DNA of 22,628 bases, from positions 1 through 22,628 of the forward strand of contig JBDRFG010000149.1 in the NCBI GenBank assembly GCA_043819135.1. The letters run 5' to 3'. Position numbers and translations under genes: made by a program. The notes under the pieces are model-generated. The model was not told the origin of the DNA. It saw only the letters and a list, made by a program, of their open reading frames with translations, and did not search any database. Shown in pieces: positions 1 through 22,201 of the stretch (its first letter is position 1; each line of letters begins with the position of its first letter). Source of the stretch: Candidatus Eiseniibacteriota bacterium. Its GTDB lineage: Bacteria; Joyebacterota; Joyebacteria; Joyebacterales; Joyebacteraceae.

Positions 1-191
1 CCGAGACCGCGCACCGCGTCCGTGGCGGCCTTGAGGGTCATCGTGAGGTTGTTACCGGTATCTCCGTCAGGAACGGGGAAGACATTGATCTCGTTCAGGT
101 GAAGACGCTTCGAGGCCACCAGCTCGGCTCCGCTGATGAGAGCCGAGATCAGGCAGGGACCGTCGATGTAGTGAATGTGATCTCGCGCCAT
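1..191 (-). CDS. DAK2 domain protein (FakA/YloV-like fatty acid kinase subunit, possibly DegV-fused); N-terminal part only, runs off the window
   Basis: Not in the ORF track. Manual translation from ATG at 191 gives MARDHIHYIDGPCLISALISGAELVASKRLHLNEINVFPVPDGDTGNNLTMTLKAA..., which has the DAK2 signature LNxINVFPVPDGDTGxN. GGAG lies upstream. Confidence 0.9.
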   Translation of the reverse strand, partial: MARDHIHYIDGPCLISALISGAELVASKRLHLNEINVFPVPDGDTGNNLTMTLKAATDAVRGL

Positions 192-286
192 CCGGGTGTT
201 CTCCGGTCGCTGCCTCAGGGGGGTAGAACATCCTCTATATCTACGATGTTCGAGGGGACGCTTCAACGGCGGGCAGGCCCAAGAGT

Positions 287-360
287 GGACAAACAGACCG
301 ACAGGCCTCGCATCACCGTGGCAGACGTGTTCGTCTGCGGCGACGTGAGACCTGCCGGTC
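287..360 (-). terminator. Long stem-loop (296-360) with a UGUUUG tail 3' of the histone gene; probable terminator or mRNA stabiliser
   Basis: 296-317 pairs with 339-360 and 321-327 pairs with 332-338. Four of the five non-Watson-Crick positions become G-U pairs on the minus-strand RNA. Confidence 0.65.
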
Positions 361-392
361 CTCGTTCACAGGCCACTGGCCTGGATTCTCTA

Positions 393-566
393 CTAGAAGT
401 CCTGGGGCTGGATCGTCTTGCGCCCGTTCGCCTGGGCTCTCTTGGCTGCCTTCTTCAGGGCGCTCTGAACGCGCTCGTCAACGACGCCAAGCGCATCGCC
501 GCTCAGGCGCATGTTGAGGTCCTTGACCAGAGCCTGAACCTTCGACTTGACCACGAAGTCTGCCAT
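393..566 (-). CDS. Bacterial histone-fold protein, 57 aa (short-alpha3 type, DUF1931/Bd0055/face-to-face-like)
   Basis: MADFVVKSKVQALVKDLNMRLSGDALGVVDERVQSALKKAAKRAQANGRKTIQPQDF. It has VVxSKV at alpha1, an L1 loop MRLSGDA (compare HMf ERVSDDA) and an L2 loop GRKTIxxxD with the R49-D56 clamp. GGGAGG precedes ATG 566, and the gene ends in tandem TAG TAG. Confidence 0.9.
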   Translation of the reverse strand: MADFVVKSKVQALVKDLNMRLSGDALGVVDERVQSALKKAAKRAQANGRKTIQPQDF

Positions 567-671
567 GGCTTGCCTCCCCATTACTGAGCTGTCGCTCAAC
601 TATGACACCCAGAACCATCGCCGGGCGTGATCCAGCGCTCCAGCGCCGGCGCTTCGCTCAGGAGCAAGGGC

Positions 672-700
672 AGAATAGCGGAAGGGCCGAAATCGCGCAA
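672..700 (-). promoter_or_regulatory. Sigma70-type promoter of the histone gene
   Basis: Minus strand TTGCGC (700-695), 17 bp spacer, TATTCT (677-672), about 100 nt upstream of the start codon. Confidence 0.55.
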
Positions 701-914
701 GAGGGAATATTGAGGTTCTCGAAGTGCGCTCCGCGAGGCGGCGGGCTTCAGATGGTCGCACGCACATGAGCAGGGTGGCGCGGGCGCCCGCCGGGACCCG
801 GACGCTTGCGACGCGACCGAAAGGGAATATTCCTAATCTATTATGGGGTATATGGTTAGGTCATGCTGCGGGCTCGCGCGCGGAAGCGATGTTCTGCAGC
901 CTGCCTGCTCCCCC

Positions 915-1637
915 TCACGCCCCCCTGAGGTGCCGGCGCACTGCCTTCCACGGGAAGAAGTAGGCGGCGAGCACGGGAATTATTGCCAGCCTGCTGAGAT
1001 TGGCCATGTGTAGACCCGCGAACACGAAGATGAGCAGGTGCATGCGCACCACGTTGCCGTAGGGCGCCGCGAACGAGTCCTTCCCCGATGGAGCTGGAGA
1101 GCCTGGGAATATGTCAGACAGGCGGGACAGGAAGCTCGCCACGATCAGTGGCCAGAACGAGGCGGCAGGCCTGGCGACCATGCCGAGGAAGCGCGGGAAC
1201 TTGTCGCCGTCGTCCACCAGCGGAAAGAACCCGTTCAGGAAGACGGCGTGCACGAAGTGGAACATGCCGAAGTGCACCGTGAAGAAAGCGAGCGCGCCCA
1301 GACCGCCGACCACTGCCAGGACCTTGTAGCCCACGAGTACATGCCGAACGCCGCGCACGATGCTCGAGACGATCGTCGCGTAGCCGACGGTGAGGCTCGA
1401 TATCCAGAGCCCCCAGATCACGTCCCGAGCTTCCCACCTGAAGACGGCGGCGCAGGCAACGGTCCCGGCGAACGCGAACAGGTCGAGGGCGAGGTCCCTC
1501 CCCCCGGGGGTGGAGTCCAACCTCAGGACCCTGACGGCCCCCTCTCGCAGGACCCTCAGCAGTGCAGTGGTATCAGACACGGTCGCCCCACTATGGAAGC
1601 GCGTTTCTCGCGCAATCACACCCTCTCGCACAGTCAC
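915..1637 (-). CDS. DUF6498-like integral membrane protein; start uncertain and may be further downstream
   Basis: Several hydrophobic segments, with motifs FFTVHFGMFHFVH and PYGNVVRMH typical of this family. Confidence 0.7.
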   Translation of the reverse strand: MTVREGVIARETRFHSGATVSDTTALLRVLREGAVRVLRLDSTPGGRDLALDLFAFAGTVACAAVFRWEARDVIWGLWISSLTVGYATIVSSIVRGVRHVLVGYKVLAVVGGLGALAFFTVHFGMFHFVHAVFLNGFFPLVDDGDKFPRFLGMVARPAASFWPLIVASFLSRLSDIFPGSPAPSGKDSFAAPYGNVVRMHLLIFVFAGLHMANLSRLAIIPVLAAYFFPWKAVRRHLRGA

Positions 1638-1790
1638 ACCTTAGAGCCGTAGCAAGCCCGGTTCCGTTCATGCGGTCCACCAGGACCCATGCCTGGGTTC
1701 CACCGGCAGGCGCGCGACGTAATTGCCGGGGCGCTGCGCTATCTCGGCCACCACGCTCGAGTAACCCGCGCATTGCGCAATATACTGCGC

Positions 1791-1819
1791 TGGTCAAGAG
1801 CGGCTGAATCTGGTATAAT
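1791..1819 (+). promoter_or_regulatory. Extended -10 promoter for the metallophosphoesterase
   Basis: TGGTCA (1791-1796), 17 bp spacer, perfect TATAAT (1814-1819) preceded by TGn. Confidence 0.6.
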
Positions 1820-1900
1820 ATGCTATGTGGAAGGGGGATTCGCTTCGGCGCCGCCCCCTGAGTCGTTTCCCAATGAGACTCCCTCTTTACGGAGTGACGC

Positions 1901-3661
1901 ATGTTCCCGGAGCGTGGACCGACGGCGATGAGCACCGTCGTGGTGCTGGTGGTCCTTGCGGTCTCGGCTGCTCTCACCTCCCCGGCCGCCGCGGAAGGCG
2001 CCCGTGCCCTCGGCGACACGCTGACCGTGGTGATGCGCCCAATCCTCCCGGTCCCGGAGATCGTCGTGCCCGGGGACAGCTTCGTCATCGAGGCGATGGC
2101 GCCGCAATCAACAACGGGGTGGGCCGTTCAGCTCGCTCGAGGAGCAGCGACACACGCCCTGAGCGTGGACTCGACCACCTACGAGTCGTCATTCGAACGT
2201 TGGTTCCTCTCGGTCACCGTCCCTGCCGACGTCCCGGCCGAAACGTACGGCCTCGAGGTCACGGCGTCCGGCGGCATCTACGACGAGGTGGACCACGCCG
2301 TCACGGTGCGGCAGAGCATCGAGGACGATTTCTACTTCATCCACGTCACTGACAGCCATCTCCCGACCCACAAGTACTACTACGAGTCGGGTGCGGACAC
2401 CGACACGACCGAGATGGAGGACCTCCACGAGGTCATCGATGACATCAACATCATCAATCCCGCGTTCGTGCTGTTCACGGGCGACATCATCAACGAAGGC
2501 GAGCTGGAAGACTTCCTCGACAAACGCTACTTCACACGCACCCAGCGCATTCTTCAGCGCTTCGACGTGCCAGTCTACTTGACCGCGGGCAACCACGACG
2601 TGGGCGGATGGGACGACACGCCGCCACCGGACGGAACCGCGCGGCGGAACTGGTGGAAGTTCTTCGGCTGGCGCTATCTGAACGACCCGCCGCCCGGAGA
2701 AGGCGTCCACACGCAGAACTACTCGTTCGACTACGGGGACGTTCACTTCATCGGGATCGAGGCCTACAACAACTACGACCGCTGGCGCACATCGATCTAC
2801 GGGGACGACAGCTTCACCGACGACCAGCTCGACTGGCTGGTCGACGACATCGGGACGGTCTCTCCGGCCACGCCGATCATCGCCTTCCACCACCGGGACT
2901 TCCAGGACCAGCTCAGTCTGGGCACTCTCGGCATCGACGGCGCGTTGTCGGGGCACATCCACTACACGGACGGTGACATCGGGGCCCACCCGTTCAATCT
3001 CTCGACGGAGACGGTCTGCGACGGCGAGCGCGCCATGCGGCTGGTGAGGGTCTCGGGTTCATCTGTCACCCCATCGGAGCCGATCGACGCCGGCTCGAGC
3101 GGCGGCAGTCTCAGGCTGCTGTTCGATGCGGCCAACGACGGCACGAACTCGGAGATCACAGCCACGGTCGACAACAATCAGCCGGAGAACTTCGAGCACG
3201 GGCTCATCAGGTTCCTCGTTGACGCGTCGCAGGCGCCCTACACGGTCGACAACGGGGAACTCCTCCAGATGATCGTGGACGGGTCGGTCGCCACCTGCTA
3301 CGTGCAGGTGGCCATGCCGGCTCACTCCAACACATACGTCACGATAAGCCCGGACGAATCGTCCGGCGTCGACGAAGACTCCGTCCCGTCGCTTGCCCTG
3401 CTGGGTCCGGCCTTCCCGAATCCCGCCGGGACACGCGCCACGGTAGCCTTCTCGCTGGGCGCTTCCGGGCACGCGATCGTGAGCGTGTACGATATCTCGG
3501 GACGGCTTGTCACGACGCTGTTGGACGGCCCGGCGGCCGCGGGCCCGCACAGGGTCGCGTGGGATCTCGCGGGCGCGGGCGATGTCGCGTCAGGCATTTA
3601 CATTTACAGGATCGAGTCGCTCGGCAAGAGCGTCTCGGGCAAGATGGTGGTCGTGCGGTAG
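1901..3661 (+). CDS. Secreted calcineurin-like metallophosphoesterase with a C-terminal FlgD-Ig/T9SS-type sorting domain
   Basis: Signal peptide; motifs DSH, GDIINEG, GNHD, HH and GHIH; C-terminus FPNP...VSVYDISGRLV..L...W...ASGIYIYRI...KMVVVR. Alternative start at 1928. Confidence 0.85.
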   Translation: MFPERGPTAMSTVVVLVVLAVSAALTSPAAAEGARALGDTLTVVMRPILPVPEIVVPGDSFVIEAMAPQSTTGWAVQLARGAATHALSVDSTTYESSFERWFLSVTVPADVPAETYGLEVTASGGIYDEVDHAVTVRQSIEDDFYFIHVTDSHLPTHKYYYESGADTDTTEMEDLHEVIDDINIINPAFVLFTGDIINEGELEDFLDKRYFTRTQRILQRFDVPVYLTAGNHDVGGWDDTPPPDGTARRNWWKFFGWRYLNDPPPGEGVHTQNYSFDYGDVHFIGIEAYNNYDRWRTSIYGDDSFTDDQLDWLVDDIGTVSPATPIIAFHHRDFQDQLSLGTLGIDGALSGHIHYTDGDIGAHPFNLSTETVCDGERAMRLVRVSGSSVTPSEPIDAGSSGGSLRLLFDAANDGTNSEITATVDNNQPENFEHGLIRFLVDASQAPYTVDNGELLQMIVDGSVATCYVQVAMPAHSNTYVTISPDESSGVDEDSVPSLALLGPAFPNPAGTRATVAFSLGASGHAIVSVYDISGRLVTTLLDGPAAAGPHRVAWDLAGAGDVASGIYIYRIESLGKSVSGKMVVVR

Positions 3662-3696
3662 ACGCTGCGGGGAACCAGCACCAACGGGGATCAGCG

Positions 3697-3725
3697 GGGC
3701 CGTCGGCGTGAGCCGGCGGCCCTGT
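3697..3725 (+). terminator. Hairpin between convergent genes; probable terminator
   Basis: GGGCCGTCGGC-GTGA-GCCGGCGGCCC, an 11 bp stem with a GNRA loop. The U-tail is weak. Confidence 0.5.
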
Positions 3726-3825
3726 CCGCGTACGCGTCCGGACGGACCGGGATGACCACAGAGACGTCGGGCCTGGCAGCGTCCGGCATGAACCCTTCCC
3801 CGGTGAGAGCTGATGACCGCGCCGG

Positions 3826-4548
3826 CTACCGCGACTGCCAGCGCATGGTCTCGAGCCGCTCGCGCAGCTGCCCGGCCGTGCTGAACTTCTTGAGAATGAG
3901 GGTACGCTTGAGGCCGCAGCAGATGGCCTTGACCTCGGGGGGCTGGCTCGAGTAGTGGGCCCGACCGCCCAGAGCGTCGTAGAAGATCCTCACGAGGTCG
4001 CACACGTCGTCCTGGATGTTCACCCTGCGCGGCGCGCGCCAGCGGTACAGGTCAAGGAGCTTGATGTCGAACCCCAACCCCGCGCGCTTGACGATGATGT
4101 TCTCGGTGTGCAGGTCCCCGTGGTATTCGCGCAGGTGATGGACGCTCTCGATGCCCGCCGCCAGCGCGTGAAGCAGATGCAGTGCCTGGTAGGCGTCCAG
4201 CCGCTTGCCGGGCTGGCGCCGCAGGAAGTCCCGGAGAAGCTCTCCCTCCACGTATTCGGAGACCACGAACGTCACCGGCACACCGAGGTAGTTGACCGTC
4301 TCCTGAGTGTGGTACTGGATGAGTATCGGGCAGTGGCGCAGGCGATGCAGCTTCTTGGCGTAGTAGGTCAACGTCGCGTTGCGGGGGTTGCGCTGCGGGA
4401 AGAAGAATTTCGCAGCGCGCTCGATGCCGGTGCTCAGTTCTCGCACGAGATAGACCTCGCCCTCCCACCCCGCGCCCAGGTGCATTGCGATCTCATACTT
4501 GTCCGCGAGCACGTCACCGACCCTGAAGTCAAACGACTCCAGACGCAA
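3826..4548 (-). CDS. Protein kinase-like domain protein (atypical, compact)
   Basis: Gly loop LGAGWEGEVY, AAKFF lysine, SEYVEG hinge, HGDLHTENI catalytic loop and KLLDL. TTG 4548 is the preferred start, though the ORF is open to 4674. Confidence 0.8.
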   Translation of the reverse strand: MRLESFDFRVGDVLADKYEIAMHLGAGWEGEVYLVRELSTGIERAAKFFFPQRNPRNATLTYYAKKLHRLRHCPILIQYHTQETVNYLGVPVTFVVSEYVEGELLRDFLRRQPGKRLDAYQALHLLHALAAGIESVHHLREYHGDLHTENIIVKRAGLGFDIKLLDLYRWRAPRRVNIQDDVCDLVRIFYDALGGRAHYSSQPPEVKAICCGLKRTLILKKFSTAGQLRERLETMRWQSR

Positions 4549-11685: not shown

Positions 11686-12936
11686 TCAGAAGCTGTACTT
11701 CAGCTTCGCGTATACCGAATCGTTCGCATCGTAGACTCCGAACATCCCCTCGTCGCCAATGAAGAAATCCGCCCCAGCGAGCACCTCGAATCCGTCCGCC
11801 ACGTCGTAGCTGACCTTCGGTCGCAGGAGCGCGTCGCTGTCGCTCAGGCCCAGGTACGAGAAGAACTCCAAGTGCAGCGTGTCGTTCAGGTAGTCATCTC
11901 TCACAAGGAAGGTCATCACGTCCGAGTGCTCGTCGGCTGACAGCGAATCGTCGTGGTCCAGGATCATTTCCTGAATGAACTGGGCGCTCATGCCGACGCC
12001 GAGAAGGGTCCAGTCGACTCCGACCAGGTAGTGAACGTAGTCGCGCTCGAGCACCCCGTCCCCGTTCAGCGGACTCTCGGTGGCAAGTTGTTTACCCCAG
12101 TAGTAGGCGCCTTCTCCGCGCACAACGACGCCGCCGACGCCCGTGCTGAAGCTCCCGCCGGCGAGCGTCATGCGGTGGTGCTGAGGAGTGATAGCCAGTG
12201 AGACGATCTCGTGAGTGTCGGGGTTCTGCTCCACAGACAGATGCAGCGCCGGCTCGTCGTCCCATGCATATCCAGCCATCATCTCCACATCGAAGGAGGA
12301 TGACAGAAGCGAGTACTTCGTGAACACCTCGCTGTTCTCGAGAGATGCGTCGACGTCCACCGAGGATGTATCGAAGCTCGGCTGTACTGGAAGCTGCAAG
12401 GATCTTGCCCAGATCGATCCTTCGTCCGGGGCGAGCGCGGGAGCAAACACAGGAACCCAGATGACTTCCAGCGTCCCGGCGTTCCTGTAGTAGTCGAACC
12501 TCACCGCGTCGACTCCGGTTCGTATCTCTTCGAAGTCCGGCAGGAGGAAGCGGCGGAGGTCCTTCGGCGATACGACGTCCGTTATGAACACGCCGTCGCC
12601 CTTCCCCCAGATGACCTGCTGCCTGCCGATCCGGAGGTCGACGCTGTCCCAGTAGATGTCGACATACGCCTGGCGCAGGCCCAACTCGAGCTCCTCGCCC
12701 GGACGCTGGTAGACATGTGGGTCAACGCGGAAGGCAACGTTGCCGCGCGATTGGTCCAACGTCAGACCGAGCGTGTTCTCGACGAGCGAGTAGTCCCCGC
12801 CGTCGATCAGGACCGCCGTGTGCTGCCGAACGTAGCCGCCGACGTGGATCGACTCCAGAGTGGCCGCGGGGGTCGCCGAGAAGGCCACACCGAGGACCGC
12901 GACGACCACCGTGAGACAGACCCGGAGGCTCCTCAT
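11686..12936 (-). CDS. Outer-membrane beta-barrel protein (DUF1302-like)
   Basis: Signal peptide, LRQAYVD...DLRIGRQQVIWGKGDG...DVVSPKD, alternating beta strands and C-terminal KLKYSF (BAM signal). Confidence 0.8.
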   Translation of the reverse strand: MRSLRVCLTVVVAVLGVAFSATPAATLESIHVGGYVRQHTAVLIDGGDYSLVENTLGLTLDQSRGNVAFRVDPHVYQRPGEELELGLRQAYVDIYWDSVDLRIGRQQVIWGKGDGVFITDVVSPKDLRRFLLPDFEEIRTGVDAVRFDYYRNAGTLEVIWVPVFAPALAPDEGSIWARSLQLPVQPSFDTSSVDVDASLENSEVFTKYSLLSSSFDVEMMAGYAWDDEPALHLSVEQNPDTHEIVSLAITPQHHRMTLAGGSFSTGVGGVVVRGEGAYYWGKQLATESPLNGDGVLERDYVHYLVGVDWTLLGVGMSAQFIQEMILDHDDSLSADEHSDVMTFLVRDDYLNDTLHLEFFSYLGLSDSDALLRPKVSYDVADGFEVLAGADFFIGDEGMFGVYDANDSVYAKLKYSF

Positions 12937-12937
12937 C

Positions 12938-13723
12938 CTAGAGCCCCCTCGTCATCATTCGTTCGGTGAACTTGCCGTCCGGGACACCCGAGTCAAGCTG
13001 GACGTCGTCCAGGGCCATGGTCGTTGTGTGGTCTCTCTGCACGTGATGCATCGTCGAGCGCGTGACTACCCAGTAGTCGCCGACATCCCCGTACTTGTCC
13101 ACGGTCAGCGTCTTCAGAAGCTCATCATCTTCGTCGTAGAAATCCTTCTTCACGACAATCCACTTGTCCGCGACGATCCAGCTTACGGTCCTGCCGTAGA
13201 TGTACTCCTCCTCGGTCGGCACGCTCTGGACCATGTAGCAGGGCTCGTCGTTCACGTCCTCACGCCCAAGCAACGTATGCGTGTCGCTGCTCGGATGGCG
13301 GTCACCAAGGTCGTCGTACGTGAAATCGGACCCCATGAAGTAGTCGCCCTTGCTGTCGCTGGAGATCCTCTTGACCTTCTTCAGCGCAGGCAGGTAGATC
13401 CACTGATCATCGTCCTGACCGACCGCCGTGTAGCTCCAGTTCATGAACGACGTGTTCCTGACATCTGCGGGGGACTCGAAGAACATCACGCTCTTTTCGA
13501 CGTCACCGAAGTCCTTCGTGAACTGGCGGATCTCACGCACGCGCTGGTCCCCGCGCGAGTTGATGAGCGTCATCGTGAGTTTGGACTGCATGTCCTCACC
13601 ATCGGGTCTGTAGTAGACACTCTCGACCAGCTCGAGCCCGCTGGGCTCCTCAGCTGATACCGAGGTGGCGGCGATGATCAGGAGCAACATGACAACTGCA
13701 CCGGTCCTCTTCATTTCGACCAT
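12938..13723 (-). CDS. Outer membrane lipoprotein-sorting (LolA-like) periplasmic protein
   Basis: Signal peptide; motifs F.SPADVRNT.F, DDDQWIYLPALKKVKRIS and FMGSDFTYDD. Confidence 0.88.
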   Translation of the reverse strand: MVEMKRTGAVVMLLLIIAATSVSAEEPSGLELVESVYYRPDGEDMQSKLTMTLINSRGDQRVREIRQFTKDFGDVEKSVMFFESPADVRNTSFMNWSYTAVGQDDDQWIYLPALKKVKRISSDSKGDYFMGSDFTYDDLGDRHPSSDTHTLLGREDVNDEPCYMVQSVPTEEEYIYGRTVSWIVADKWIVVKKDFYDEDDELLKTLTVDKYGDVGDYWVVTRSTMHHVQRDHTTTMALDDVQLDSGVPDGKFTERMMTRGL

Positions 13724-13775
13724 CCTTCCCCTGTTGGCGCTCTCACCGTGAACAGGCGTGAGGGCGCATGCGTTT

Positions 13776-16064
13776 CTAGTCTCGTTTCCTGAAGAAGGTC
13801 TTCGTCTGGATCATGACGACGACCATGATCGTGATCGTACCCAAGAGGCTGACGAACATGTTCCCGGACACGAGCACGCCGAGAGCCCTGTTCGGCGGGA
13901 ACGCCGAGTACAGCAGCACCAGGAAGCCGGCTATCACCACGACGGCGTTGAACAGGATGGCCCTGCCCGAGTGGTGCATGGTGTCCGCGACGGTGGCAAG
14001 CACATCGCCCGTGCTCTTCGCGGCAACTCTGAAGCGCTCCATGAAGTGAACCGCGTAGTCGATTCCCACACCCACCGCGATGCTCGATATGAGCGCCGTG
14101 GTCGTGCTGAGCGGTATGTTCAGGAGCCCCATGGCGCCGAAGCTCACGATGGCCGTGATCGAGATCGGGATCACGCCGATGAGCCCCGCCGAGATCCGCC
14201 TGAACATCAGGGACAAGAGTACGACTATGATGCCCAGCGACAGGACGAGGCTCTTCACCTGTCCCTTCAGGATCAGGTCGGAGAAGATCAGGCTCTTGTA
14301 GCCGGAGCCCGCGTAGTTGACGCTCACGCCCAGCTCCTCGAAGAGCGGCCTGAACTTCTCAACCACAGCAATGGCACTGTTGATGGTCTTCGAATCATCG
14401 CCCTTGAGCTGCAGAGTGACGTTTGAGCTGGCGTAGTCGTAGTCGACGGTCCTCCAGAGCGTCTCAGGGTCGCCCGACATCTCATATAGAAGAAGGTACT
14501 GCGCGACAAGCTCTGTGGACTCCGGAATCGTGTCGAACTCGGGACTGTCTGCGTGCATCACCATGTTGATACGCCGGAGGTAGTCCGCGAGGCCGAACGA
14601 ATTGCCGACCTCGGCGAGCGTCTCGCTCTCCGTCTGCATCTCGTCCATCAGGCGCAGCACATCCGGGCTCTTCATTCCACCCTCGTCCGCGCTCTCGAGA
14701 ATGACGTTCAACGTCGAGGTGCCGCCGAATCGCTCGTTTATGAACGCGTCGGTCAGAACGATGTCGCTGTCTCGCTCGAACTTCTCGAGGAAACTGGAGT
14801 TGATCCAGATCTTCGTCGCACCCATGGCGGACGCAACCACCACGATGATGGCCGCAGCGACAATCAGCCGCTTGTGCCTCATGAGGCCCTTGGCGAACCT
14901 CACCGCGATGTCGTCCGTCCCTTCCCGCTTAGAGTTGGCTTTCCTGGCTTTAGGCGGACCGAAGGCCACGACGCCCGCCGGGATCAGGACGAGAGACAGA
15001 ACCATCGCCACCATCACGCCAAATGCTGTGAACATGCCGAAGTACTTGATCGGATAGACGTCCGACGTCAGGAGCGAAACGAATCCCACCGCGGTCGTGA
15101 CGGAGGTCATGACGACGGGCTTCCACATGCCGCGTATCATCTCGGAGGCGCTGTCCCGGCCACCTGTTCCTGGGTGCTTCCTCTGGTAGAGCCCGAGGTG
15201 TCCATATATGTGAATTCCGTCGGCGACGCCTATCGCGATGAGCATCACCGGGATCATGGTCGAAACGGCGTAGATGGGGATGCCCATCCACGCCATCAGG
15301 CCGAACGTCCAGAGCGTGCTCAGGACCACGACGAGCAGCGTGAAGACCGTGCTCTTGGGGCTCCGCAGGACAAGCAGCAGGACGGCTATTATCACCAGAA
15401 GCACGATGGGGACCATGCGCTTCATGTCCTTGGGCGCCAGGTAGGCCATCGTCCCCTCGACGATGGGTCTGCCCGCGACATAGAGCTTCTCCGGCCCCTC
15501 GTAGCCGGCAGCGAGGTCCAGTATCTCGTGATAGAACTCCTGCGAGAAGGCCTCGTCACCGATCTCGGCGATGACCAACGTGACAGTCTCGTCCTCCGAC
15601 ACGAGCCTTCCGTGCATCATGTCGTTGGCCCTGACGTTCGCGCGGAGCACGTCGAGTTCTAGCTCGCTCTGCGGGACCTTCGAGTAGAACGCGCGCACAT
15701 CCAGCCCGCCCTCGGAGCCGGTGATGTTATCGGCGGTGTAGAGCGACGTAACGTCGCCTCTGTCAACCCGGTCGTGCTTCTGGAGTGCTTTCGTCAGATC
15801 CCTGACCTTCGACAGAGTGCCCGGATTGTATATCCCGCCCGGGTGCTCGACGGCGACGATGATGCCGTCCTTTATGTCAAACCACTCCTCCGCCTCGTCA
15901 CTGTAGACGAACGCCGGGTGGTCCTTCGGCATGTACTTGTCCAGGTCGGTCTCCATCCGGGTGTTGCCCGCGACGCCGACGAAGAACGCAGCAGAGACGG
16001 CGAAGACGGCCGTGAACACGAGCCACGGACGGCCCGTCAGGACTACCAGGAATCTGTGCATCAT
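13776..16064 (-). CDS. MMPL/RND family transporter (two-repeat, lipid-exporter type)
   Basis: Two repeats of TM, periplasmic domain and 5 TM. Motifs IAIGVADGIH, TSVTTAVGF, IAVGVGIDYAVH and SGRAILFN. ATG 16064 or 16061 follows AAAGGGG. Confidence 0.92.
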   Translation of the reverse strand: MMHRFLVVLTGRPWLVFTAVFAVSAAFFVGVAGNTRMETDLDKYMPKDHPAFVYSDEAEEWFDIKDGIIVAVEHPGGIYNPGTLSKVRDLTKALQKHDRVDRGDVTSLYTADNITGSEGGLDVRAFYSKVPQSELELDVLRANVRANDMMHGRLVSEDETVTLVIAEIGDEAFSQEFYHEILDLAAGYEGPEKLYVAGRPIVEGTMAYLAPKDMKRMVPIVLLVIIAVLLLVLRSPKSTVFTLLVVVLSTLWTFGLMAWMGIPIYAVSTMIPVMLIAIGVADGIHIYGHLGLYQRKHPGTGGRDSASEMIRGMWKPVVMTSVTTAVGFVSLLTSDVYPIKYFGMFTAFGVMVAMVLSLVLIPAGVVAFGPPKARKANSKREGTDDIAVRFAKGLMRHKRLIVAAAIIVVVASAMGATKIWINSSFLEKFERDSDIVLTDAFINERFGGTSTLNVILESADEGGMKSPDVLRLMDEMQTESETLAEVGNSFGLADYLRRINMVMHADSPEFDTIPESTELVAQYLLLYEMSGDPETLWRTVDYDYASSNVTLQLKGDDSKTINSAIAVVEKFRPLFEELGVSVNYAGSGYKSLIFSDLILKGQVKSLVLSLGIIVVLLSLMFRRISAGLIGVIPISITAIVSFGAMGLLNIPLSTTTALISSIAVGVGIDYAVHFMERFRVAAKSTGDVLATVADTMHHSGRAILFNAVVVIAGFLVLLYSAFPPNRALGVLVSGNMFVSLLGTITIMVVVMIQTKTFFRKRD

Positions 16065-16072
16065 CACCCCTT

Positions 16073-16090
16073 TGTGAATCACCATTCACA
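16073..16090. promoter_or_regulatory. Palindromic operator 1 (probable TetR site) upstream of the MMPL gene
   Basis: TGTGAAT-CACC-ATTCACA, directly adjacent to the RBS. Confidence 0.75.
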
Positions 16091-16126
16091 TCATCGGCAA
16101 AAAGAGAGATGCTCGCCGGCCTACAT

Positions 16127-16723
16127 TCACTCGCTTGCTACGGCCCTGCAGAACATGTCCCAGACGCGGGCGACATGTGCCGCAATATCGAAGTCCTCGC
16201 CCTCTGCGTGCCGGAGCTGGACCGCCGGCTGTATCAAGCCCGCAAACAGGAGTGCGACACTGGTCGGATCGATGTCCGAACGGACGTGACCCGATTCCTG
16301 TCCGTCCCGCACCAGTGCCTCAACCCTGGCCAGGTACCCCCTGAAGATCCCCTCCGTCTTTGCTCGGCGAACGGCACGTCCGCCCGGCACGTTCATGGAC
16401 GACATGATGTGCGGTACCGCTCCCCCGCTCTCTATCAGCGCCGCGTGCCTGGTCAGCAGCAGCTCGAGCGCCATCAGTGGATTCTCCGCCTCGTTCCGTG
16501 CCGCGTCGACGAGGCGGTAGACCCTGTCCCGAAAGACATCCAGAGCAGCACTGAGCACGTCCTCCCTGCCCTCGAAGTGGCGATAGACGGCAGAGGGAAC
16601 TAGTCCGACGCTCTCCGCGAGATCGGCGATGTTGAATCCCTCGCTGCCTCTCTCTGCCAAGAGAGCCAACGCCGCCGACGCTATCTGGTCTCGACGTGAG
16701 TCTGTGTCCATTCTCTGTGTCAT
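16127..16723 (-). CDS. TetR/AcrR family transcriptional regulator
   Basis: N-terminal HTH RRDQIASAALALLAERG...IADLAESVGL..SAVYRHF; C-terminal GQESGHVRSDID. Confidence 0.93.
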   Translation of the reverse strand: MTQRMDTDSRRDQIASAALALLAERGSEGFNIADLAESVGLVPSAVYRHFEGREDVLSAALDVFRDRVYRLVDAARNEAENPLMALELLLTRHAALIESGGAVPHIMSSMNVPGGRAVRRAKTEGIFRGYLARVEALVRDGQESGHVRSDIDPTSVALLFAGLIQPAVQLRHAEGEDFDIAAHVARVWDMFCRAVASE

Positions 16724-17056: not shown

Positions 17057-18478
17057 TCACGGCTTCTCCCCGTAGGCCCTCTCGAACCTGACCCCGGCGT
17101 AGTAGTGCCTGAGGATCTCGTCGTACCGGTAGCCCTGGCGCGCCATCTCCATGGCGCCGTGCTGGCACATACCGATGCCATGGCCGTTGCCTCTCCCCTC
17201 GGCCGTGACGCCGGTGACCCGTCCGGCTCTTCTCTTCACCTCCAACTCGAACCAGGCGCTGCGGAGGATGCGATCGGTCCCGGGGCGTCTGAGCAGCCAC
17301 CTCACGCGGTCGCCGAAGACCCGGTACGTCCCCGTGCCCGTCTCTATCTCCATCCACCGGACTCGACCCGAGGGCGTGCGCACGGAGACGCGGATGTCCC
17401 TCACGTCTCCCAGCGGCTGCCTGACGGGAGTCGATGCCGTACCAGGGAGCTGCTCTCGAACGAGTCTGGCGATCTCGTCCCCGTCCCATGTCTCGGTCCA
17501 CCTGAAGTGCGCACCGCCGCTGCAGAAGGCGTCGTTGAACTGGTCCTCCTCGCGACTGTCCCAGACCTGCGTCAGATACGGAACCCTCGGCAGTCCCCAC
17601 ACCTCGTGCCGCGCGTCCGTGCGCCCTCCGCAGTTCGCGTGGAAATAGGCATGGATGGGCTCGCCGGAGTGGCTCATGAAAACCCCTGCGGTTTCGAGGA
17701 TAGCCCGGTCGCAGACCGCGTCTTCCCCGTCGACGCCCGCGTAGACCTGGTCGTCGACCGTGGCGTAGACATCGAAGCCGCCACCGGCCCGTCTCCCGCC
17801 CGACGCGATCGCGTACGTGCGGGCGGCGACCGCCTGCGCCTTGACTGCCTCTATCTCACTCTCCGGCCTCGCTCCAATCTCCTTGGGTACGACGCCTCGC
17901 AGGTATGACTCGACGTCCACCACGTTGACAACCGTGAGCGAGCCGCGCCCCGACGGAAACAGCTCTATCTCGCCCCTGTAGGACACGCCTTCAAAGACGA
18001 GCGGCCCTGCGGCCTCGGGACGAATGCGGATAGTCCCCGCGTCCATGCGGAAGTCGTCGCCGGGCCCGGAGCCTGTTATCCCGCCGCCCGCGACCCCGAA
18101 TCGCCACCTGTCTCCTGCCTGCGCACTCCAGCTCTCGAGCGAGTCCACGTACAGCGCGACGGTGAAATCCCCCTTGCCCGACACCATGGCGTCGCGCACG
18201 CCGTGGGCCAGCCCGACGCGGATGAAAGGCACGACGTCCGGAAGCTCGCCCTGCTCATGGCCGGAACCGCCTTCCGGCTCTTTCGCAATGTCGTGGTAGT
18301 CACTCGACTCCGGGCGCTCGCGGGGTCCTCCGCCATCCGACAGGGGCCACACCCCGGCGCACCCCGCTGAGAACATCGCCAGCGCAAGGAGCAGGACAGG
18401 CAGAAGAAGAGCGCCGCAGATGAACCGCGGCGCCCAGTGGAATCTCGTCATGAGCTGTGCTGGAAGCGATCGGGACAC
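17057..18478 (-). CDS. SpoIID/LytB domain protein (lytic transglycosylase-like), probable lipoprotein
   Basis: YRG, VNVVDVESYLRGVVPKE, EAVKAQAVAARTY, DQVYAG and GNGHGIGMCQHGA...ILRHYY. Lipobox-like SAGC follows a hydrophobic stretch. Alternative start at 18451. Confidence 0.92.
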   Translation of the reverse strand: MSRSLPAQLMTRFHWAPRFICGALLLPVLLLALAMFSAGCAGVWPLSDGGGPRERPESSDYHDIAKEPEGGSGHEQGELPDVVPFIRVGLAHGVRDAMVSGKGDFTVALYVDSLESWSAQAGDRWRFGVAGGGITGSGPGDDFRMDAGTIRIRPEAAGPLVFEGVSYRGEIELFPSGRGSLTVVNVVDVESYLRGVVPKEIGARPESEIEAVKAQAVAARTYAIASGGRRAGGGFDVYATVDDQVYAGVDGEDAVCDRAILETAGVFMSHSGEPIHAYFHANCGGRTDARHEVWGLPRVPYLTQVWDSREEDQFNDAFCSGGAHFRWTETWDGDEIARLVREQLPGTASTPVRQPLGDVRDIRVSVRTPSGRVRWMEIETGTGTYRVFGDRVRWLLRRPGTDRILRSAWFELEVKRRAGRVTGVTAEGRGNGHGIGMCQHGAMEMARQGYRYDEILRHYYAGVRFERAYGEKP

Positions 18479-18480
18479 GA

Positions 18481-19059
18481 TCAGTCTTCCTTCTTCTCCG
18501 GAGCCACGTCCGGCGGAGTCTCCGGCTGGTCGGCCTCGGCAGGTGTTTCGTCCACCGCGGTCTCGTCAGCCCCGACTGCCTCGTCCTCGATGGGCTCGTC
18601 GGCCGGCGTCTCTGCAACCTTGCGCTCGGCCTCGTCCCTGAGCTTCGCCTCTTCCTCGAGCCTGGCGCGCTTGTGTGTCATGTCCTTGAAGGTCACAGGC
18701 TCGGTCACCAAAGCCAGGATGGACAGGTGGGCTCCGTCGCCACGCCTGTCTTCGACCTTGACGATCCTGGTGTACCCGCCCGGGCGGTCCGCGTAGCGGG
18801 GCCCAAGCTCGCTAAACAGCTTCGCAACGACCTTCTTGCTCCGGATGACCTTGAGGGCCGTGCGCCTCGCCGCTAGATCGCCCTCTCCCCGCTTCCCCAA
18901 CGTGATCAGCTTCTCAGCGAGCGAGCGGGCTTCCTTGGCCTTCGCGTCGGTCGTCTCGATCTGCTCGAGATCAAGGAGCGTGGTCACCATGTTGCGAAGC
19001 ATGGCCTTCCTGTGACTCCACGTCCTGTTGAGCTTCCGCCCCTTGTGCCTGTGTCGCAT
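18481..19059 (-). CDS. rplQ: 50S ribosomal protein L17 with an acidic C-terminal extension
   Basis: [29 protein letters not shown] and [14 protein letters not shown]. Confidence 0.98.
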
Positions 19060-19141
19060 CTACCGTCCTGCCTTTCTACCCCATCTCAGTCCCGAGCATT
19101 CGGCAGCGCCCGGACCCTGTATGCCGGCGCGGTGCGCCTCG

Positions 19142-20263
19142 CTACAGCGCGTCGTCGTCGATCTCGTCCTCTGCGGGAGCCTCCTCGGCCGCATCACTTG
19201 AATCGCCGTCCGGCTCCCCGCCCGAGGTCTCCGCGTCACCCGCGGCCTCCTCGCCCTCCCCCTCCGGTGTGTCCTCGCCCCAGTCGCCCCCAGGCAACAT
19301 GACGGCCTCGACGTCCATACCGAAGTGCAACCCCATATCGGAGAGGATGTCCACCAGCTCCTGGAGCGACTTCCGTCCGAAGTTTCGGTACTTCAGCATC
19401 TCGGCCTCGGACTTCTGCACCAGATCTCCGAGCGTCCGTATTCCCGCATCACGCAGGCAGTTAGACGACCTCACGGAAAGTTCGAGTTCCTCGACGCTGT
19501 GGTTCAGCACCTCCATGAGCTGCAACTGCTCCTTGTCGATCACCTCTTCCACTTCCTCCTCGGGCTCCACGTCGAACGACATCCAGAGAAGGAGATGGTC
19601 CTTGAGGATCTTCGCCGCGAAGGACACCGCGTCTTCCGGCGTGACCGTACCGTCCGTCCACACCTCGAGCATCAGCTTGTCGAAGTCGATGCGCTGGCCA
19701 ACTCGGGTGTTCTCGACTTCGTAGTGCACGCGTTTGACCGGCGAGAAGACCGAGTCGATCGGGATGAAGCCGATGGGCTTCTCGTCGAACTGGTGCTCTT
19801 CGGCCTGGACGTATCCCCTACCGGCGTCGATGATGACTTCCATGTGAAGCGTGGCATCGGCGCCAAGTGTTGCGATGTGCAGGTCGGGGTTTGTGATCTC
19901 GACGTTGGGATTAGGCGCGAAGTCAGACGCCTTGACGTCACCCTCGGATCTCCTGTCGAGAATCAGCGTTTCAGCTGAGTCGCTCAGAAGATTGACGTTC
20001 ATCTGCTTGAGATTCAGGATCAGTTCGGTCACGTCCTCTGTCACACCATCCACTACAGAGAACTCGTGCAGCACGCCATCGATGCTCACACCGATAACTG
20101 CGGCGCCCTGAAGTGACGAAAGAAGCGCTCGTCTCAGGGAGTTGCCGATCGTGATCCCGTATCCCCGCTCCAGAGGCTCCGCTGTGAGCCTCCCGTACGA
20201 CCCCGTTATCGTCTCGCGGTCCCAGACAACGGCATCGGGCATCCTAAGATTCTTCCACTTCAT
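19142..20263 (-). CDS. rpoA: DNA-directed RNA polymerase subunit alpha with an acidic C-terminal extension
   Basis: EPLERGYGITIGNSLRRALLSSLQG, HEFS, ELSVRSSNCL and NFGRKSL. ATG 20263 follows AGGAGG. Confidence 0.98.
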   Translation of the reverse strand: MKWKNLRMPDAVVWDRETITGSYGRLTAEPLERGYGITIGNSLRRALLSSLQGAAVIGVSIDGVLHEFSVVDGVTEDVTELILNLKQMNVNLLSDSAETLILDRRSEGDVKASDFAPNPNVEITNPDLHIATLGADATLHMEVIIDAGRGYVQAEEHQFDEKPIGFIPIDSVFSPVKRVHYEVENTRVGQRIDFDKLMLEVWTDGTVTPEDAVSFAAKILKDHLLLWMSFDVEPEEEVEEVIDKEQLQLMEVLNHSVEELELSVRSSNCLRDAGIRTLGDLVQKSEAEMLKYRNFGRKSLQELVDILSDMGLHFGMDVEAVMLPGGDWGEDTPEGEGEEAAGDAETSGGEPDGDSSDAAEEAPAEDEIDDDAL

Positions 20264-20312
20264 TCTGCTCTGGCCTCCTTGGAGCTGGGCCACCATCGGC
20301 CGAAGCCGTGGA

Positions 20313-20942
20313 CTACCTCGAGTAGAAGTTGACGATCAGCTGCTCGTTCACGGGCGACGGGATCTGGTCTCGCGACGGCAGATCCAGCACGCGACCCATG
20401 AATCTCTTCGGATCGAGTTCCAGCCAATCGACGGTCCCGACTCCGCTCTTCGCATCGACCGACATCCTCACCTCGTGCAGCTTCTGGCTCTTCTCCCGCA
20501 CGACGACTTCGTCCCCAGGCTTGATCGAATACGAGGGGATGTCGACCTTGCGCCCGTTCACCGTTATGTGTCCGTGTACAACAAGCTCTCTCGCAGCGGA
20601 CCTGGAGTAAGCGAAGCCCAGTCGGTACACGATGTTGTCCAGCCTCCGCTCAAGAAGCCTCATCAGGTTCTCGCCTGTAATGCCACGCTGATGGTCGGCT
20701 TCCGCGTAGTAGTTCCTGAACTGCTTCTCCAGCACCCCGTAGAGACGCTTGGCCTTCTGCTTCTCCATGAGCTGGATACCGTACTCCGTGGGCTTCCGGC
20801 GGCGCCTCTGGCCGTGCTGCCCCGGACCGTAAGGGCGCCTCTCAAATGCGCACTTGTCGGTGGAGCAACGCGTGCCCTTCAGAAAGAGCTTGGCGCCTTG
20901 TCTGCGGCAGATCCTGCACCGCGGACCGTGATACGTTGCCAT
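20313..20942 (-). CDS. rpsD: 30S ribosomal protein S4 (Cys-containing, zinc-binding type)
   Basis: GPRCRICRR...KC..ERRPYGPGQHG, LERRLDN and HGHITVNG. Confidence 0.98.
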   Translation of the reverse strand: MATYHGPRCRICRRQGAKLFLKGTRCSTDKCAFERRPYGPGQHGQRRRRKPTEYGIQLMEKQKAKRLYGVLEKQFRNYYAEADHQRGITGENLMRLLERRLDNIVYRLGFAYSRSAARELVVHGHITVNGRKVDIPSYSIKPGDEVVVREKSQKLHEVRMSVDAKSGVGTVDWLELDPKRFMGRVLDLPSRDQIPSPVNEQLIVNFYSR

Positions 20943-20959
20943 CTAGTGACCCTCCGTTC

Positions 20960-21331: not shown

Positions 21332-21350
21332 GACTACCTCCCGTCACCGG

Positions 21351-21737: not shown

Positions 21738-21761
21738 CGCGATTCCCTCCCTTTCGCGGCG

Positions 21762-21875: not shown

Positions 21876-21915
21876 GTTGCCTCCCGACGCGCGAGGGACC
21901 ACCCTAGTGTCCGTA

Positions 21916-22134: not shown

Positions 22135-22201
22135 CAACCCCCCTGGGTGCCGCGATGTCCCGCGGGGCTGCCTCTTGAGCCCCCGGGACCAGCCGGCGCC
22201 C

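What the first reader, a model, noticed from the sequence alone, without database searches (positions are those of the whole stretch)
393..566. Stand-alone bacterial histone gene
Seen: a 57-aa basic protein (11 K/R versus 6 D/E) with its own RBS, promoter and tandem stops, carrying the histone-fold hallmarks MRLSGDA (L1) and NGRKTIQPQDF (L2, R-x6-D clamp). Compared with archaeal HMfB, alpha2 is about one turn shorter and the chain ends right after the conserved Asp, so alpha3 is truncated. Known: this architecture defines the recently described short-alpha3 prokaryotic histones, such as Bdellovibrio Bd0055/HBb and the Leptospira face-to-face histones, which bind or wrap DNA without forming canonical nucleosomes. 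Inference: the KR..NGRKT..PxDF ending looks more like the face-to-face tetramer class. This probably uncultured lineage may use a histone as a major chromatin protein.
Basis: partly seen in the sequence, partly recalled or inferred. Interest (0 to 1): 0.85.

Follow-up and report, generated by a model that had tools for sequence, protein, structure and literature searches.

The report
Tetramer-type bacterial histone gene
This small gene in an uncultured Eisenbacteria genome encodes a genuine bacterial histone of the already described ring-forming, DNA-wrapping "face-to-face" type, so it is a clear but fairly ordinary new member of a rare known family.

Summary
The 57-codon ORF at 393-566 (minus strand) is real. 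It has 11 K/R against 6 D/E, a GGAGG site 6 nt before the ATG, and dN/dS of about 0.1 across seven genus-level orthologues.

- PDB sequence hits are HTkC (1.3e-7), HLp (4.8e-7) and HBb (2e-4).
- The monomer model (pLDDT 90.8) overlays HLp at TM 0.92 and 0.9 A.
- The FtF tetramerisation residues are kept (R43, N47, R49, D56, C-terminal F57). HBb-type dimers lack the first two.
- A four-copy model gives the handshake dimer plus the HLp-type dimer-dimer contact (ipSAE 0.85, best control 0.00). Similar complexes are solved, so this may be memory.

The "major chromatin protein" idea remains open:
- The gene occurs in 10 of 31 genomes, 3 of 8 genera, of this phylum.
- 30 of 31 genomes carry HU/IHF genes, whether or not they have the histone.
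- No RNA run was listed.

The tandem stop is not conserved. A conserved promoter-like site and an approximately 100-nt leader are. NCBI and JGI already label close relatives as DUF1931 or histone H3/H4. This is a new member of a known kind, of modest interest.

The parts
393..566 (-). Histone CDS: 57 codons plus TAG. Alpha3-truncated histone fold of the FtF class.
   Evidence: Translation. PDB sequence hits to HTkC, HLp and HBb. Model pLDDT 90.8. Foldseek TM 0.92 to HLp. dN/dS about 0.1.
390..392 (-). Second in-frame TAG (the tandem stop). Not conserved.
   Evidence: Present in this genome only, 1 of 7 aligned orthologues.
573..579 (-). Shine-Dalgarno site GGGGAGG. GGAGG ends 6 nt before the ATG.
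   Evidence: Sequence. GGGAGG is invariant in 7 of 7 genus-g1 orthologues, and GGAGGG is present in 2 of 2 g2 orthologues.
584..599 (-). Small hairpin (6-bp stem, 4-nt loop) just 5' of the SD.
   Evidence: Predicted in the folds of two genus-g1 leaders, the window's and G008's, and a hairpin of different sequence sits at the same place in genus g2. It carries no compensatory change within g1, and within g1 the whole-leader fold likewise has 0 of 40 pairs with one. Function inferred only.
567..665 (-). Putative 5' leader of about 100 nt.
   Evidence: Inferred from the promoter position. The block 567-715 diverges 0.119 per site, against 0.227 at third codon positions and 0.52 further upstream. 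No Rfam match. Folding z-scores are about 0.
672..700 (-). Promoter-like site TTGCGC-N17-TATTCT.
   Evidence: Nearly invariant in 7 of 7 g1 orthologues. g2 has TTGACA-N16-TATGCT at a similar distance from the ATG. It falls below the generic scan's threshold. Not experimentally mapped.
369..383 (-). Hairpin CAGGCC-AGT-GGCCTG, about 10 nt after the stop. A possible transcript end, with no T-run.
   Evidence: The arms are kept in 7 of 7 orthologues while the loop varies. The terminator scan found none.
915..1637 (-). Upstream neighbour: DUF6498 membrane protein. Context only.
   Evidence: Pfam E 1.2e-12. Adjacent to the histone in 5 of 6 other g1 loci.
3..191 (-). Downstream neighbour: N-terminus of a Dak2/FakA-like/DegV fusion protein, cut by the window end. 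Context only.
   Evidence: The orthologue in L017 is 641 aa with Dak2, FakA-like_M and DegV domains. It lies downstream of the histone in 6 of 6 other g1 loci.

Best explanation
The gene encodes a face-to-face (FtF) alpha3-truncated histone.

Inferred mechanism, by analogy with the solved relatives HLp (Leptospira perolatii) and HTkC (Thermococcus kodakarensis):
- Two 57-residue chains form a head-to-tail handshake dimer through crossed alpha2 helices.
- Two dimers close into a flat ring-shaped tetramer through two equivalent contacts. These are made by the end of alpha2 (R43, A46, N47), loop L2 and the one-turn alpha3 with the C-terminal carboxylate (Q53-F57).
- The R49-D56 clamp holds L2 in place.
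- The basic rim (K7, S8, K9, K15, G23, K50, T51) binds the DNA backbone without sequence preference, so that roughly 60 bp wrap around the tetramer.

In the cell it most likely acts as a nucleoid-associated protein alongside the two HU/IHF-family proteins of this genome. It appears to be expressed from its own promoter with a conserved leader of about 100 nt.

Shown here: the gene is real and constrained, the fold, the signature residues, and the modelled interfaces. Inferred: tetramer in solution, DNA wrapping, abundance and cellular role.
For: Sequence:
- phmmer against PDB gives HTkC 9f2c at 1.3e-7, HLp 9qt0 at 4.8e-7, and HBb 8fvx/8cmp at about 2e-4.
- A profile of 14 Eisenbacteria-clade sequences gives 9.9e-14, 4.5e-10 and 8.7e-9, with nucleosomal archaeal histones only at 0.003-0.9.
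- In the ungapped alignment to HLp, HLp R49/N53/R55/D62/F63 correspond to R43/N47/R49/D56/F57 here. HTkC R45 corresponds to R43 (residue roles from PMC12701072 sections 6, 7 and 9, and from passages of the HTkC preprint).
- Of the HLp DNA-contact residues A13, S14, K15, K17, K21, T27, G29, T56 and T57, the same residue is kept at 5 (S8, K9, K15, G23, T51). Two more are basic here (K7, K50) and two differ (Q11, L21).
- R43, N47, R49 and T51 are at least 90% conserved and D56 is invariant in 100 aligned relatives.
- 147 of the 166 stored proteins carry R-x3-N-x-R-x-T-x4-D.

Structure:
- AlphaFold2 monomer: pLDDT 90.8, helices 7-16 and 25-46, turn 54-56.
- Foldseek: HLp TM 0.92-0.94 at rmsd 0.9 A, HTkC 0.92, HBb 0.85-0.89, nucleosomal histones 0.53-0.75.

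Assembly (four-copy model):
- ipSAE was 0.85, 0.85 and 0.86 in three runs, and the best of 3 controls was 0.00.
- The runs agree in at least 100% of contacts, and the partner pLDDT is 93.
- In calibration the mark was reached by 20 of 30 proteins solved as pairs of one chain and by 1 of 23 solved as single chains. That calibration held two copies and used its own alignments, so the counts hold only roughly here.
- The scored copy touches one copy along the whole handshake surface. It touches another copy through that copy's residues 42-43, 46-47 and 53-56, all with expected error under 8 A. This is the surface described for the HLp tetramer.

Gene reality and selection: dN 0.038, dS 0.387, variable sites by codon position 7/1/29.
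Against: - No experiment exists on this protein.
- The complex model may score from memory, because HLp and HTkC tetramers are solved. The tool reports only the partner's contacts, so ring closure by the fourth copy is not seen directly.
- HLp S52 and T61, which take part in its hydrogen-bond network, are A46 and Q55 here.
- HLp K17 is Q11 here.
- Pfam and NCBIfam matches are all below their curated cut-offs: CBFD_NFYB_HMF 16.9 bits against 21.4, DUF1931 16.1 against 21.8, archaea_histone 15.3 against 50.
- On role: HU/IHF genes are present here (3 matches) and in 30 of 31 genomes of the phylum. The histone is missing from 19 of 19 genomes of five genera, 14 of them at least 90% complete. It is therefore dispensable for the phylum as a whole.
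- Codon usage is not informative.
Confidence: 0.8

Rival explanations
1. It is the principal chromatin protein of this lineage, as the FtF histone is in Leptospira. In this reading it coats most of the chromosome and is essential.
For: - Strong purifying selection.
- A strong SD, a conserved promoter-like site (consensus TTGACA -35 in genus g2) and a constrained leader.
- Single copy in the genome.
- Found in 7 of 8 genomes of the genus counting this one. The one miss also lacks the neighbouring DUF6498 gene, so an assembly gap is likely.
- Precedent: the FtF histones of L. interrogans and T. kodakarensis are reported as highly expressed (PMC12701072 discussion; HTkC preprint passages).
Against: - Leptospira is described as lacking HU and other classical NAPs. 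This genome has 3 PF00216 matches.
- In the phylum, 25 of 31 genomes have two PF00216 matches, irrespective of the histone.
- The histone is absent from 5 of 8 genera.
- Codon usage lies between ribosomal and other genes and is not informative.
Confidence: 0.2
2. It is a dimer-only DNA bender like Bdellovibrio HBb (Bd0055). In this reading it does not form tetramers or wrap DNA.
For: - It shares the fold with HBb (TM 0.85-0.89).
- It shares the RKT...D motif.
- HBb scores 2e-4 by sequence.
Against: - Bacterial dimers lack the R48/N52 positions of the FtF logo (Schwab et al. 2024, passage). In the alignment HBb has S and D where this protein has R43 and N47.
- The FtF proteins HTkC and HLp score about 1000-fold better than HBb.
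- The four-copy model places confident dimer-dimer contacts at residues 42-47 and 53-57.
Confidence: 0.08
3. It is a histone-fold protein that does not bind DNA, as proposed for DUF1931 pseudodimers. Its role would then be protein-protein scaffolding or something else.
For: - NCBI names close relatives 'DUF1931 domain-containing protein'.
- There is a weak Pfam DUF1931 match at E 0.013.
Against: - The DUF1931 match covers only profile positions 23-52 of 138 and scores 16.1 bits against a cut-off of 21.8.
- The protein has one fold, not two.
- It is net basic, +5.
- It keeps most residues that contact DNA in the HLp co-crystals.
- HLp itself is deposited under the same DUF1931 label, so the name carries no functional weight.
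Confidence: 0.04
4. It is a chance ORF, or a leftover of a mobile element, with no function.
For: - The ORF is short.
- The distribution in the phylum is patchy.
Against: - dN/dS is about 0.1, with 29 of 37 variable sites at third codon positions.
- The downstream Dak2/DegV gene adjoins the histone in 6 of 6 other g1 loci and the upstream DUF6498 gene in 5 of 6.
- There is no match in 50,697 phage records.
- GC content is like the surroundings.
Confidence: 0.01

Closest known systems
HLp, the face-to-face histone of Leptospira perolatii (PDB 9QT0, 9QT1, 9QT2; Hu et al. 2025, PMC12701072)
   Same: - Single histone fold with a short alpha2 and a one-turn alpha3 that ends in ...DF.
- RD clamp: R49-D56 here, R55-D62 in HLp.
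- Tetramerisation residues R49/N53/R55 of HLp correspond to R43/N47/R49 here.
- Model overlay: TM 0.92-0.94, rmsd 0.9 A, 35-36% identity.
- The modelled dimer-dimer surface is the same one.
   Different: - This protein is 57 aa against 63 aa and lacks the disordered N-terminal residues.
- S52 is A46, T61 is Q55 and K17 is Q11 here.
- The gene is not next to smc, map or a DUF350 gene. Here map lies about 22 kb away in the ribosomal operon.
- The host keeps HU/IHF, whereas Leptospira is reported to lack them.
HTkC, the archaeal FtF histone of Thermococcus kodakarensis (PDB 9F2C; Schwab et al. 2024, PMC11390915; preprint 10.64898/2025.12.06.692711)
   Same: - Best sequence match in PDB: 1.3e-7 for the single sequence and 9.9e-14 for the profile, at 40% identity.
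- HTkC R45, shown by mutation to be needed for the tetramer, corresponds to R43 here.
   Different: - HTkC has E at the position of N47 and a 2-residue insertion in L1.
- It has a different C-terminus.
- It comes from an archaeal host that also has nucleosomal histones.
HBb / Bd0055, the bacterial dimer histone of Bdellovibrio bacteriovorus (PDB 8FVX, 8CMP)
   Same: - Alpha3-truncated fold.
- RKT...D motif.
- Coexists with HU/IHF in its host.
   Different: - HBb lacks the R and N that make the FtF dimer-dimer contact (S and D at those positions).
- It is dimeric and bends DNA rather than wrapping it (PMC12701072 abstract).
Nucleosomal archaeal histones (HMfB and relatives; Pfam CBFD_NFYB_HMF)
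   Same: - Histone fold.
- Handshake dimer.
- RxTxxxxD motif.
   Different: - Their alpha3 has about 10 residues and their alpha2 is longer.
- Their tetramers form through a four-helix bundle and extend into hypernucleosomes.
- Here the Pfam score is below the cut-off and profile E-values to HMfA/HMfB are 0.05-0.9.

Membership tests
Alpha3-truncated histones (Schwab et al. 2024) | Histone fold whose alpha3 has only 3-4 residues and whose alpha2 is 4-5 residues shorter than in nucleosomal histones. | tested here: met
   The model has helices 7-16 and 25-46 (22 residues) and a 3-residue helical turn at 54-56, and the chain ends at 57. The best structural matches are the three solved alpha3 histones.
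Alpha3-truncated histones (Schwab et al. 2024) | RxTxxxxD motif (RD clamp). | tested here: met
   R49-K-T51-I-Q-P-Q-D56 is read from the sequence. D56 is invariant, and R49 and T51 are at least 90% conserved in 100 relatives.
Face-to-face (FtF) histones | Conserved R and N at the end of alpha2 (R48 and N52 of the FtF logo; HLp R49/N53; HTkC R45) that make the dimer-dimer contact. | tested here: met
   R43 and N47 align to them. Both are invariant in 14 Eisenbacteria-clade sequences and at least 90% conserved in 100 relatives.
Face-to-face (FtF) histones | Confident predicted homotetramer with two equivalent dimer-dimer interfaces. This is the criterion the family was defined by (interface PAE under 10 A). 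| tested here: met
   In the four-copy model, ipSAE was 0.85 against a best control of 0.00. Contacts under 8 A expected error link the scored copy to a second dimer at residues 42-43, 46-47 and 53-56. Caveats: a different program from the one used in the paper, the tool's calibration was for two copies, possible memory of 9QT0 and 9F2C, and only the partner's contacts are listed.
Face-to-face (FtF) histones | Clusters by sequence with FtF histones rather than with bacterial dimers. | tested here: inconclusive
   FtF proteins score better than HBb. In a tree of 85 rows the HBb-like row sits on a long branch outside. However, there are only 57 columns, and the published CLANS set was not available to cluster against.
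Face-to-face (FtF) histones | Stable tetramer in solution that binds DNA non-specifically and wraps about 60 bp. | not testable with these tools
   Needs SEC-MALS, EMSA, MNase and TPM on recombinant protein.
Bacterial dimer histones (HBb/Bd0055 type) | Absence of the FtF R48/N52 residues, and no confident multimer larger than a dimer. | tested here: not met
   Both residues are present, and the model gives a confident dimer-dimer contact.
DUF1931 pseudodimeric histones (Pfam PF09123; Aq_328, TTHA1568) | Two histone folds in one chain, matching the 138-position profile above its cut-off. | tested here: not met
   This protein has one fold of 57 aa. It scores 16.1 bits against a cut-off of 21.8 and matches only profile positions 23-52. 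The genome has no other PF09123 match.
Nucleosomal archaeal histones (Pfam PF00808, NCBIfam NF043032) | Full-length alpha3 and a match above the curated cut-off. | tested here: not met
   It scores 16.9 bits against 21.4 for PF00808 and 15.3 against 50 for NF043032. Alpha3 is one turn.

The most novel reading that the evidence does not exclude
One sub-clade of Candidatus Eisenbacteria (3 of 8 genera) acquired an FtF histone in a single event and has since run it on top of an unchanged two-gene HU/IHF set. It is expressed from a dedicated promoter with a constrained leader of about 100 nt that regulates histone dosage. If true, this would be a natural before/after comparison, within one bacterial family, of what adding a wrapping histone does to an HU-based nucleoid.
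Probability: 0.2. Interest if true: 0.5.

Novelty: new member of a known kind. Interest (0 to 1): 0.3.

Why it matters
Only two bacterial histones, HBb and HLp, have been characterised structurally and functionally (per the discussion of PMC12701072).

This gene adds Candidatus Eisenbacteria to the bacterial lineages with an FtF histone. The main text of Schwab et al. 2024 and Hu et al. 2025 name Spirochaetota, Planctomycetota, Bdellovibrionota and Myxococcota as the predominant ones. No paper in the searched library holds both 'Eisenbacteria' and 'histone'.

Its practical value is as a comparison case. Sister genera with and without the histone all keep the same HU/IHF complement. This bears on whether bacterial histones replace or supplement classical nucleoid proteins.

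It does not change what is known about how such histones work.

Tried and rejected
- **Expression evidence.** The look-up of sequencing runs (kind rna) on window 1-4000 listed no RNA holder.
- **Codon usage as an expression proxy.** The histone scores 0.01. Ribosomal-gene windows score 0.037 +/- 0.041 and other-gene windows -0.04 +/- 0.04. 11% of other-gene windows reach the histone's score and 21% of ribosomal windows fall at or below it. This is uninformative, and the reference sets score themselves.
- **Archaeal (DPANN) origin.**
  - In a quick tree of 85 rows and 57 columns, the Eisenbacteria rows sat with three DPANN archaeal rows and one Campylobacterales row (SH-aLRT 92, not starred).
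  - AU tests rejected neither Eisenbacteria as one clade (p 0.843) nor Eisenbacteria joined to the main 43-row, mostly bacterial cluster (p 0.741). That second group was named after seeing the tree.
  - In both tests the constrained tree had the higher likelihood, so the free search was poor. The donor is unresolved.
- **Leader as a structured RNA.**
  - No Rfam match at E <= 1 in 300-950.
  - RNAalifold found 0 of 40 pairs with a compensatory change.
  - Single-sequence folds were no more stable than shuffles (z 0.30, -0.32, -0.56).
- **Deep synteny.**
  - The DUF6498 and Dak2/DegV neighbours are not next to the histone in 2 of 2 g2 loci.
  - In three histone-less genomes the DUF6498 orthologue has no Dak2/DegV-like N-terminus within about 1.5 kb. 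In the one locus read, from g6, a convergent membrane-protein ORF follows it.
  - No insertion site could be defined.
- **Phage origin.** There was no tblastn match in the phage collection.
- **The search for related loci with alignment A1.** The search was repeated with a 29-row alignment, A2.
- **Supplements of Schwab et al. 2024.** 'Eisenbacteria' was not found in the 3 files readable as text. The main supplementary PDF, which holds the taxonomic figures, was too large to read. It may still list this phylum.

Full report
**The observation**

The minus-strand ORF at 393-566 translates to a 57-residue protein, MADF...PQDF. GGGGAGG lies at 579-573, with GGAGG ending 6 nt before the ATG. Two TAG codons end the frame.

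An alignment of the locus from seven genomes of the same genus shows three things:
- The SD is invariant.
- The second stop exists only here.
- One orthologue has an in-frame TAA two codons before the ATG. The 68-aa TTG form listed is therefore not the gene.

The coding region is under purifying selection. Mean dN is 0.038 against mean dS 0.387 over 21 pairs, and variable sites by codon position are 7/1/29. The gene is real.

**What the protein is**

Curated family libraries give only sub-threshold matches:
- CBFD_NFYB_HMF at E 0.008
- DUF1931 at E 0.013
- NCBIfam archaea_histone at E 0.021

The PDB sequence search is clearer:
- HTkC of Thermococcus kodakarensis (9f2c) at 1.3e-7
- HLp of Leptospira perolatii (9qt0-2) at 4.8e-7
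- HBb/Bd0055 of Bdellovibrio (8fvx, 8cmp) at about 2e-4

A profile of 14 Eisenbacteria-clade sequences raises these to 9.9e-14, 4.5e-10 and 8.7e-9. Nucleosomal archaeal histones come in only at 0.003-0.9.

An AlphaFold2 model built on 100 relatives has pLDDT 90.8. These 100 were chosen from 166 stored proteins by length 54-72 aa. I dropped P0013, whose C-terminus is aberrant, and P0141, which is N-terminally truncated. The model has helices at 7-16 and 25-46 and a single helical turn at 54-56.

Foldseek ranks HLp first (TM 0.92-0.94, rmsd 0.9 A). HTkC follows at 0.92 and HBb at 0.85-0.89. Eukaryotic and archaeal nucleosomal histones and TAFs come next at TM 0.53-0.75. The short alpha2 and one-turn alpha3 are the defining traits of the alpha3-truncated histones (Schwab et al. 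2024, PMC11390915, passages).

**Which class**

Schwab et al. separate face-to-face (FtF) histones from bacterial dimers by a predicted ring tetramer and by two conserved residues, R48 and N52 of their logo, which the dimers lack.

Hu et al. 2025 (PMC12701072; sections 6, 7, 9 and 13 read) show that in HLp the dimer-dimer contact uses R49, S52 and N53 against R55, T61 and F63. They also report that R49, N53 and R55 are conserved in predicted tetrameric bacterial FtF histones. The HTkC preprint (passages) shows that R45 is needed for the tetramer.

In the alignments these residues correspond to R43, N47 and R49 here. D56 and F57 match HLp D62 and F63. HLp S52 and T61 are A46 and Q55 here. HBb has S and D where this protein has R43 and N47.

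R43, N47, R49 and T51 are at least 90% conserved and D56 is invariant among 100 relatives. 147 of the 166 stored proteins carry R-x3-N-x-R-x-T-x4-D.

A four-copy model gave ipSAE 0.85, 0.85 and 0.86, against 0.00 for the best of three controls. The runs agreed in at least 100% of contacts and the partner pLDDT was 93. In calibration the mark was reached by 20 of 30 proteins solved as pairs of one chain and by 1 of 23 solved as single chains. That calibration used two copies and its own alignments.

The scored copy touches one copy over the whole handshake surface. It touches another copy through that copy's residues 42-43, 46-47 and 53-56, which is the HLp-type interface. HLp and HTkC tetramers are solved, so this pass shows likeness and may come from memory.

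Of nine HLp residues that contact DNA in the co-crystals, the same residue is kept at five, two more are basic here, and two differ (Q11, L21).

I therefore file the protein as an FtF histone. I infer, by analogy, a tetramer that wraps DNA without sequence preference.

**Where it occurs**

Close relatives (88-93% identity, 12 proteins) come from metagenomes. They are named 'DUF1931 domain-containing protein [Candidatus Eisenbacteria sp.]' by NCBI and 'histone H3/H4' by JGI. Record titles of the 89-96% identical loci also say Candidatus Eisenbacteria.

The window's genome is 2.69 Mb in 174 contigs and 92% complete. It has one copy and no other PF00808 or PF09123 match.

Across the 31 genomes held for the phylum, both the single protein and the 100-row profile find the gene in 10 genomes, from 3 of 8 genera:

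| Genera | Genomes with the gene |
|---|---|
| g1 | 7 of 8, counting this genome |
| g2 | 2 of 3 |
| g3 | 1 of 1 |
| g4-g8 | 0 of 19 (14 of the 19 are at least 90% complete) |

The one g1 genome without a match also lacks the neighbouring DUF6498 gene, so an assembly gap is likely.

Beyond the phylum:
- The representative library gave 180 proteins at E <= 1e-3.
- A pattern scan of GTDB species genomes gave at least 554 confirmed relatives. These span archaea (haloarchaea, Iainarchaeota, Aenigmatarchaeota, Heimdallarchaeota) and bacteria (Myxococcota, Planctomycetota, Elusimicrobiota, Acidobacteriota, Peregrinibacteria, Bdellovibrionota and others). The best match outside Eisenbacteria is 55-56% identical.

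The 57 alignment columns cannot resolve the origin, as the tree and AU tests show.

**Role**

Leptospira is reported to lack HU and other classical nucleoid proteins, and its FtF histone is essential.

Here the genome has three PF00216 (HU/IHF) matches. In the phylum, 30 of 31 genomes have at least one and 25 of 31 have exactly two, with or without the histone. The histone is thus an addition to an HU-based nucleoid and not a replacement, as with HBb in Bdellovibrio. Its abundance is unknown: no RNA run was listed and codon usage is uninformative.

The neighbours give no functional hint:
- Upstream is a DUF6498 membrane protein.
- Downstream is a Dak2/FakA-like/DegV fusion protein.
- This order holds in g1, with DUF6498 in 5 of 6 other loci and Dak2/DegV in 6 of 6. 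It does not hold in 2 of 2 g2 loci.

**Expression signals**

The 150 nt upstream of the ATG (about 567-715) diverge 0.119 per site among the seven g1 genomes. This compares with 0.227 at third codon positions and 0.52 further upstream.

The block holds TTGCGC-N17-TATTCT (700-695 and 677-672). This is below the generic scan's threshold. Genus g2 has TTGACA-N16-TATGCT at a similar distance from the ATG. Both imply a leader of about 100 nt ending in a small hairpin just 5' of the SD. The sequences of that hairpin differ between the two genera.

There is no Rfam match, no compensatory pair within g1, and no excess folding energy. I record this as a constrained promoter and leader of unknown function.

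A CAGGCC-N3/4-GGCCTG hairpin follows the stop in 7 of 7 genomes, without a T-run.

**Novelty**

The class, its structure and its mechanism are published. Relatives are already labelled in public databases. Earlier follow-ups of this scan reached the same class for similar genes in at least 32 genomes, one of them described as Eisenbacteria-like (unchecked notes, not used as evidence).

What is new:
- The lineage. No paper in the library holds both 'Eisenbacteria' and 'histone', and it is not in the main text or the three readable supplements of Schwab et al.. Their main supplementary PDF could not be read.
- The within-phylum pattern of presence and absence against a constant HU/IHF background.

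Verdict: a new member of a known kind, with interest 0.3.

Noticed in passing
window 567-715 (minus strand): A promoter-plus-leader block upstream of the histone gene is kept much better than synonymous sites: 0.119 against 0.227 differences per site in 7 genomes. It holds TTGCGC-N17-TATTCT, the palindrome GGCGCCGGCGCC, and a hairpin just before the SD. Genus g2 shows the same architecture with different sequence. There is no Rfam match and no covariation within the genus.
   Followed up: partly
proteins P0018, P0020-P0031 and others: 33 of the 150 listed representative hits match the query twice. They are single chains of about 115-150 aa with two FtF-type folds, and 22 carry the full R-x3-N-x-R-x-T-x4-D signature in both halves. 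Such FtF-type doublets are not discussed in the main text of Schwab et al. 2024.
   Followed up: no
proteins P0022, P0026, P0148: Three of these histone-fold doublets begin with a hydrophobic, signal-peptide-like N-terminus followed by a conserved 'RKPKEIVVVGSKVK' start. That would be odd for a DNA-binding protein.
   Followed up: no
plasmid collection, hits H1-H10: tblastn finds relatives (under 60% identity) on 78 plasmid or megaplasmid records. The organisms tallied are haloarchaeal genera, and the hits are mostly annotated as DUF1931 domain-containing protein. There were none in 50,697 phage records.
   Followed up: no
window 3-191 (minus strand); orthologue at L017 3442-5367: The gene downstream of the histone encodes Dak2, FakA-like middle and DegV domains in one 641-aa chain. 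From memory, fatty-acid kinase usually has these on two separate proteins, so this looks like a fusion of the two components.
   Followed up: no
G000:C51:746-1039 (L004): Besides two clear HU/IHF genes, this genome has a third, weak PF00216 match (25.5 bits, E 2.8e-5).
   Followed up: no
window 11686-16723 (minus strand): A cluster reads TetR regulator, MMPL/RND-type transporter, LolA-like protein and DUF1302-like protein. It looks like a lipid or lipoprotein export module (Pfam).
   Followed up: no
window 17057-22627 (minus strand): This is the end of the ribosomal protein operon, running in the direction of transcription: M24 methionine aminopeptidase (cut by the window end), S13, S11, S4, RpoA and L17, followed by a SpoIID-domain protein. 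The methionine aminopeptidase is about 22 kb from the histone, so this does not reproduce the Leptospira hlp-map-smc arrangement.
   Followed up: partly
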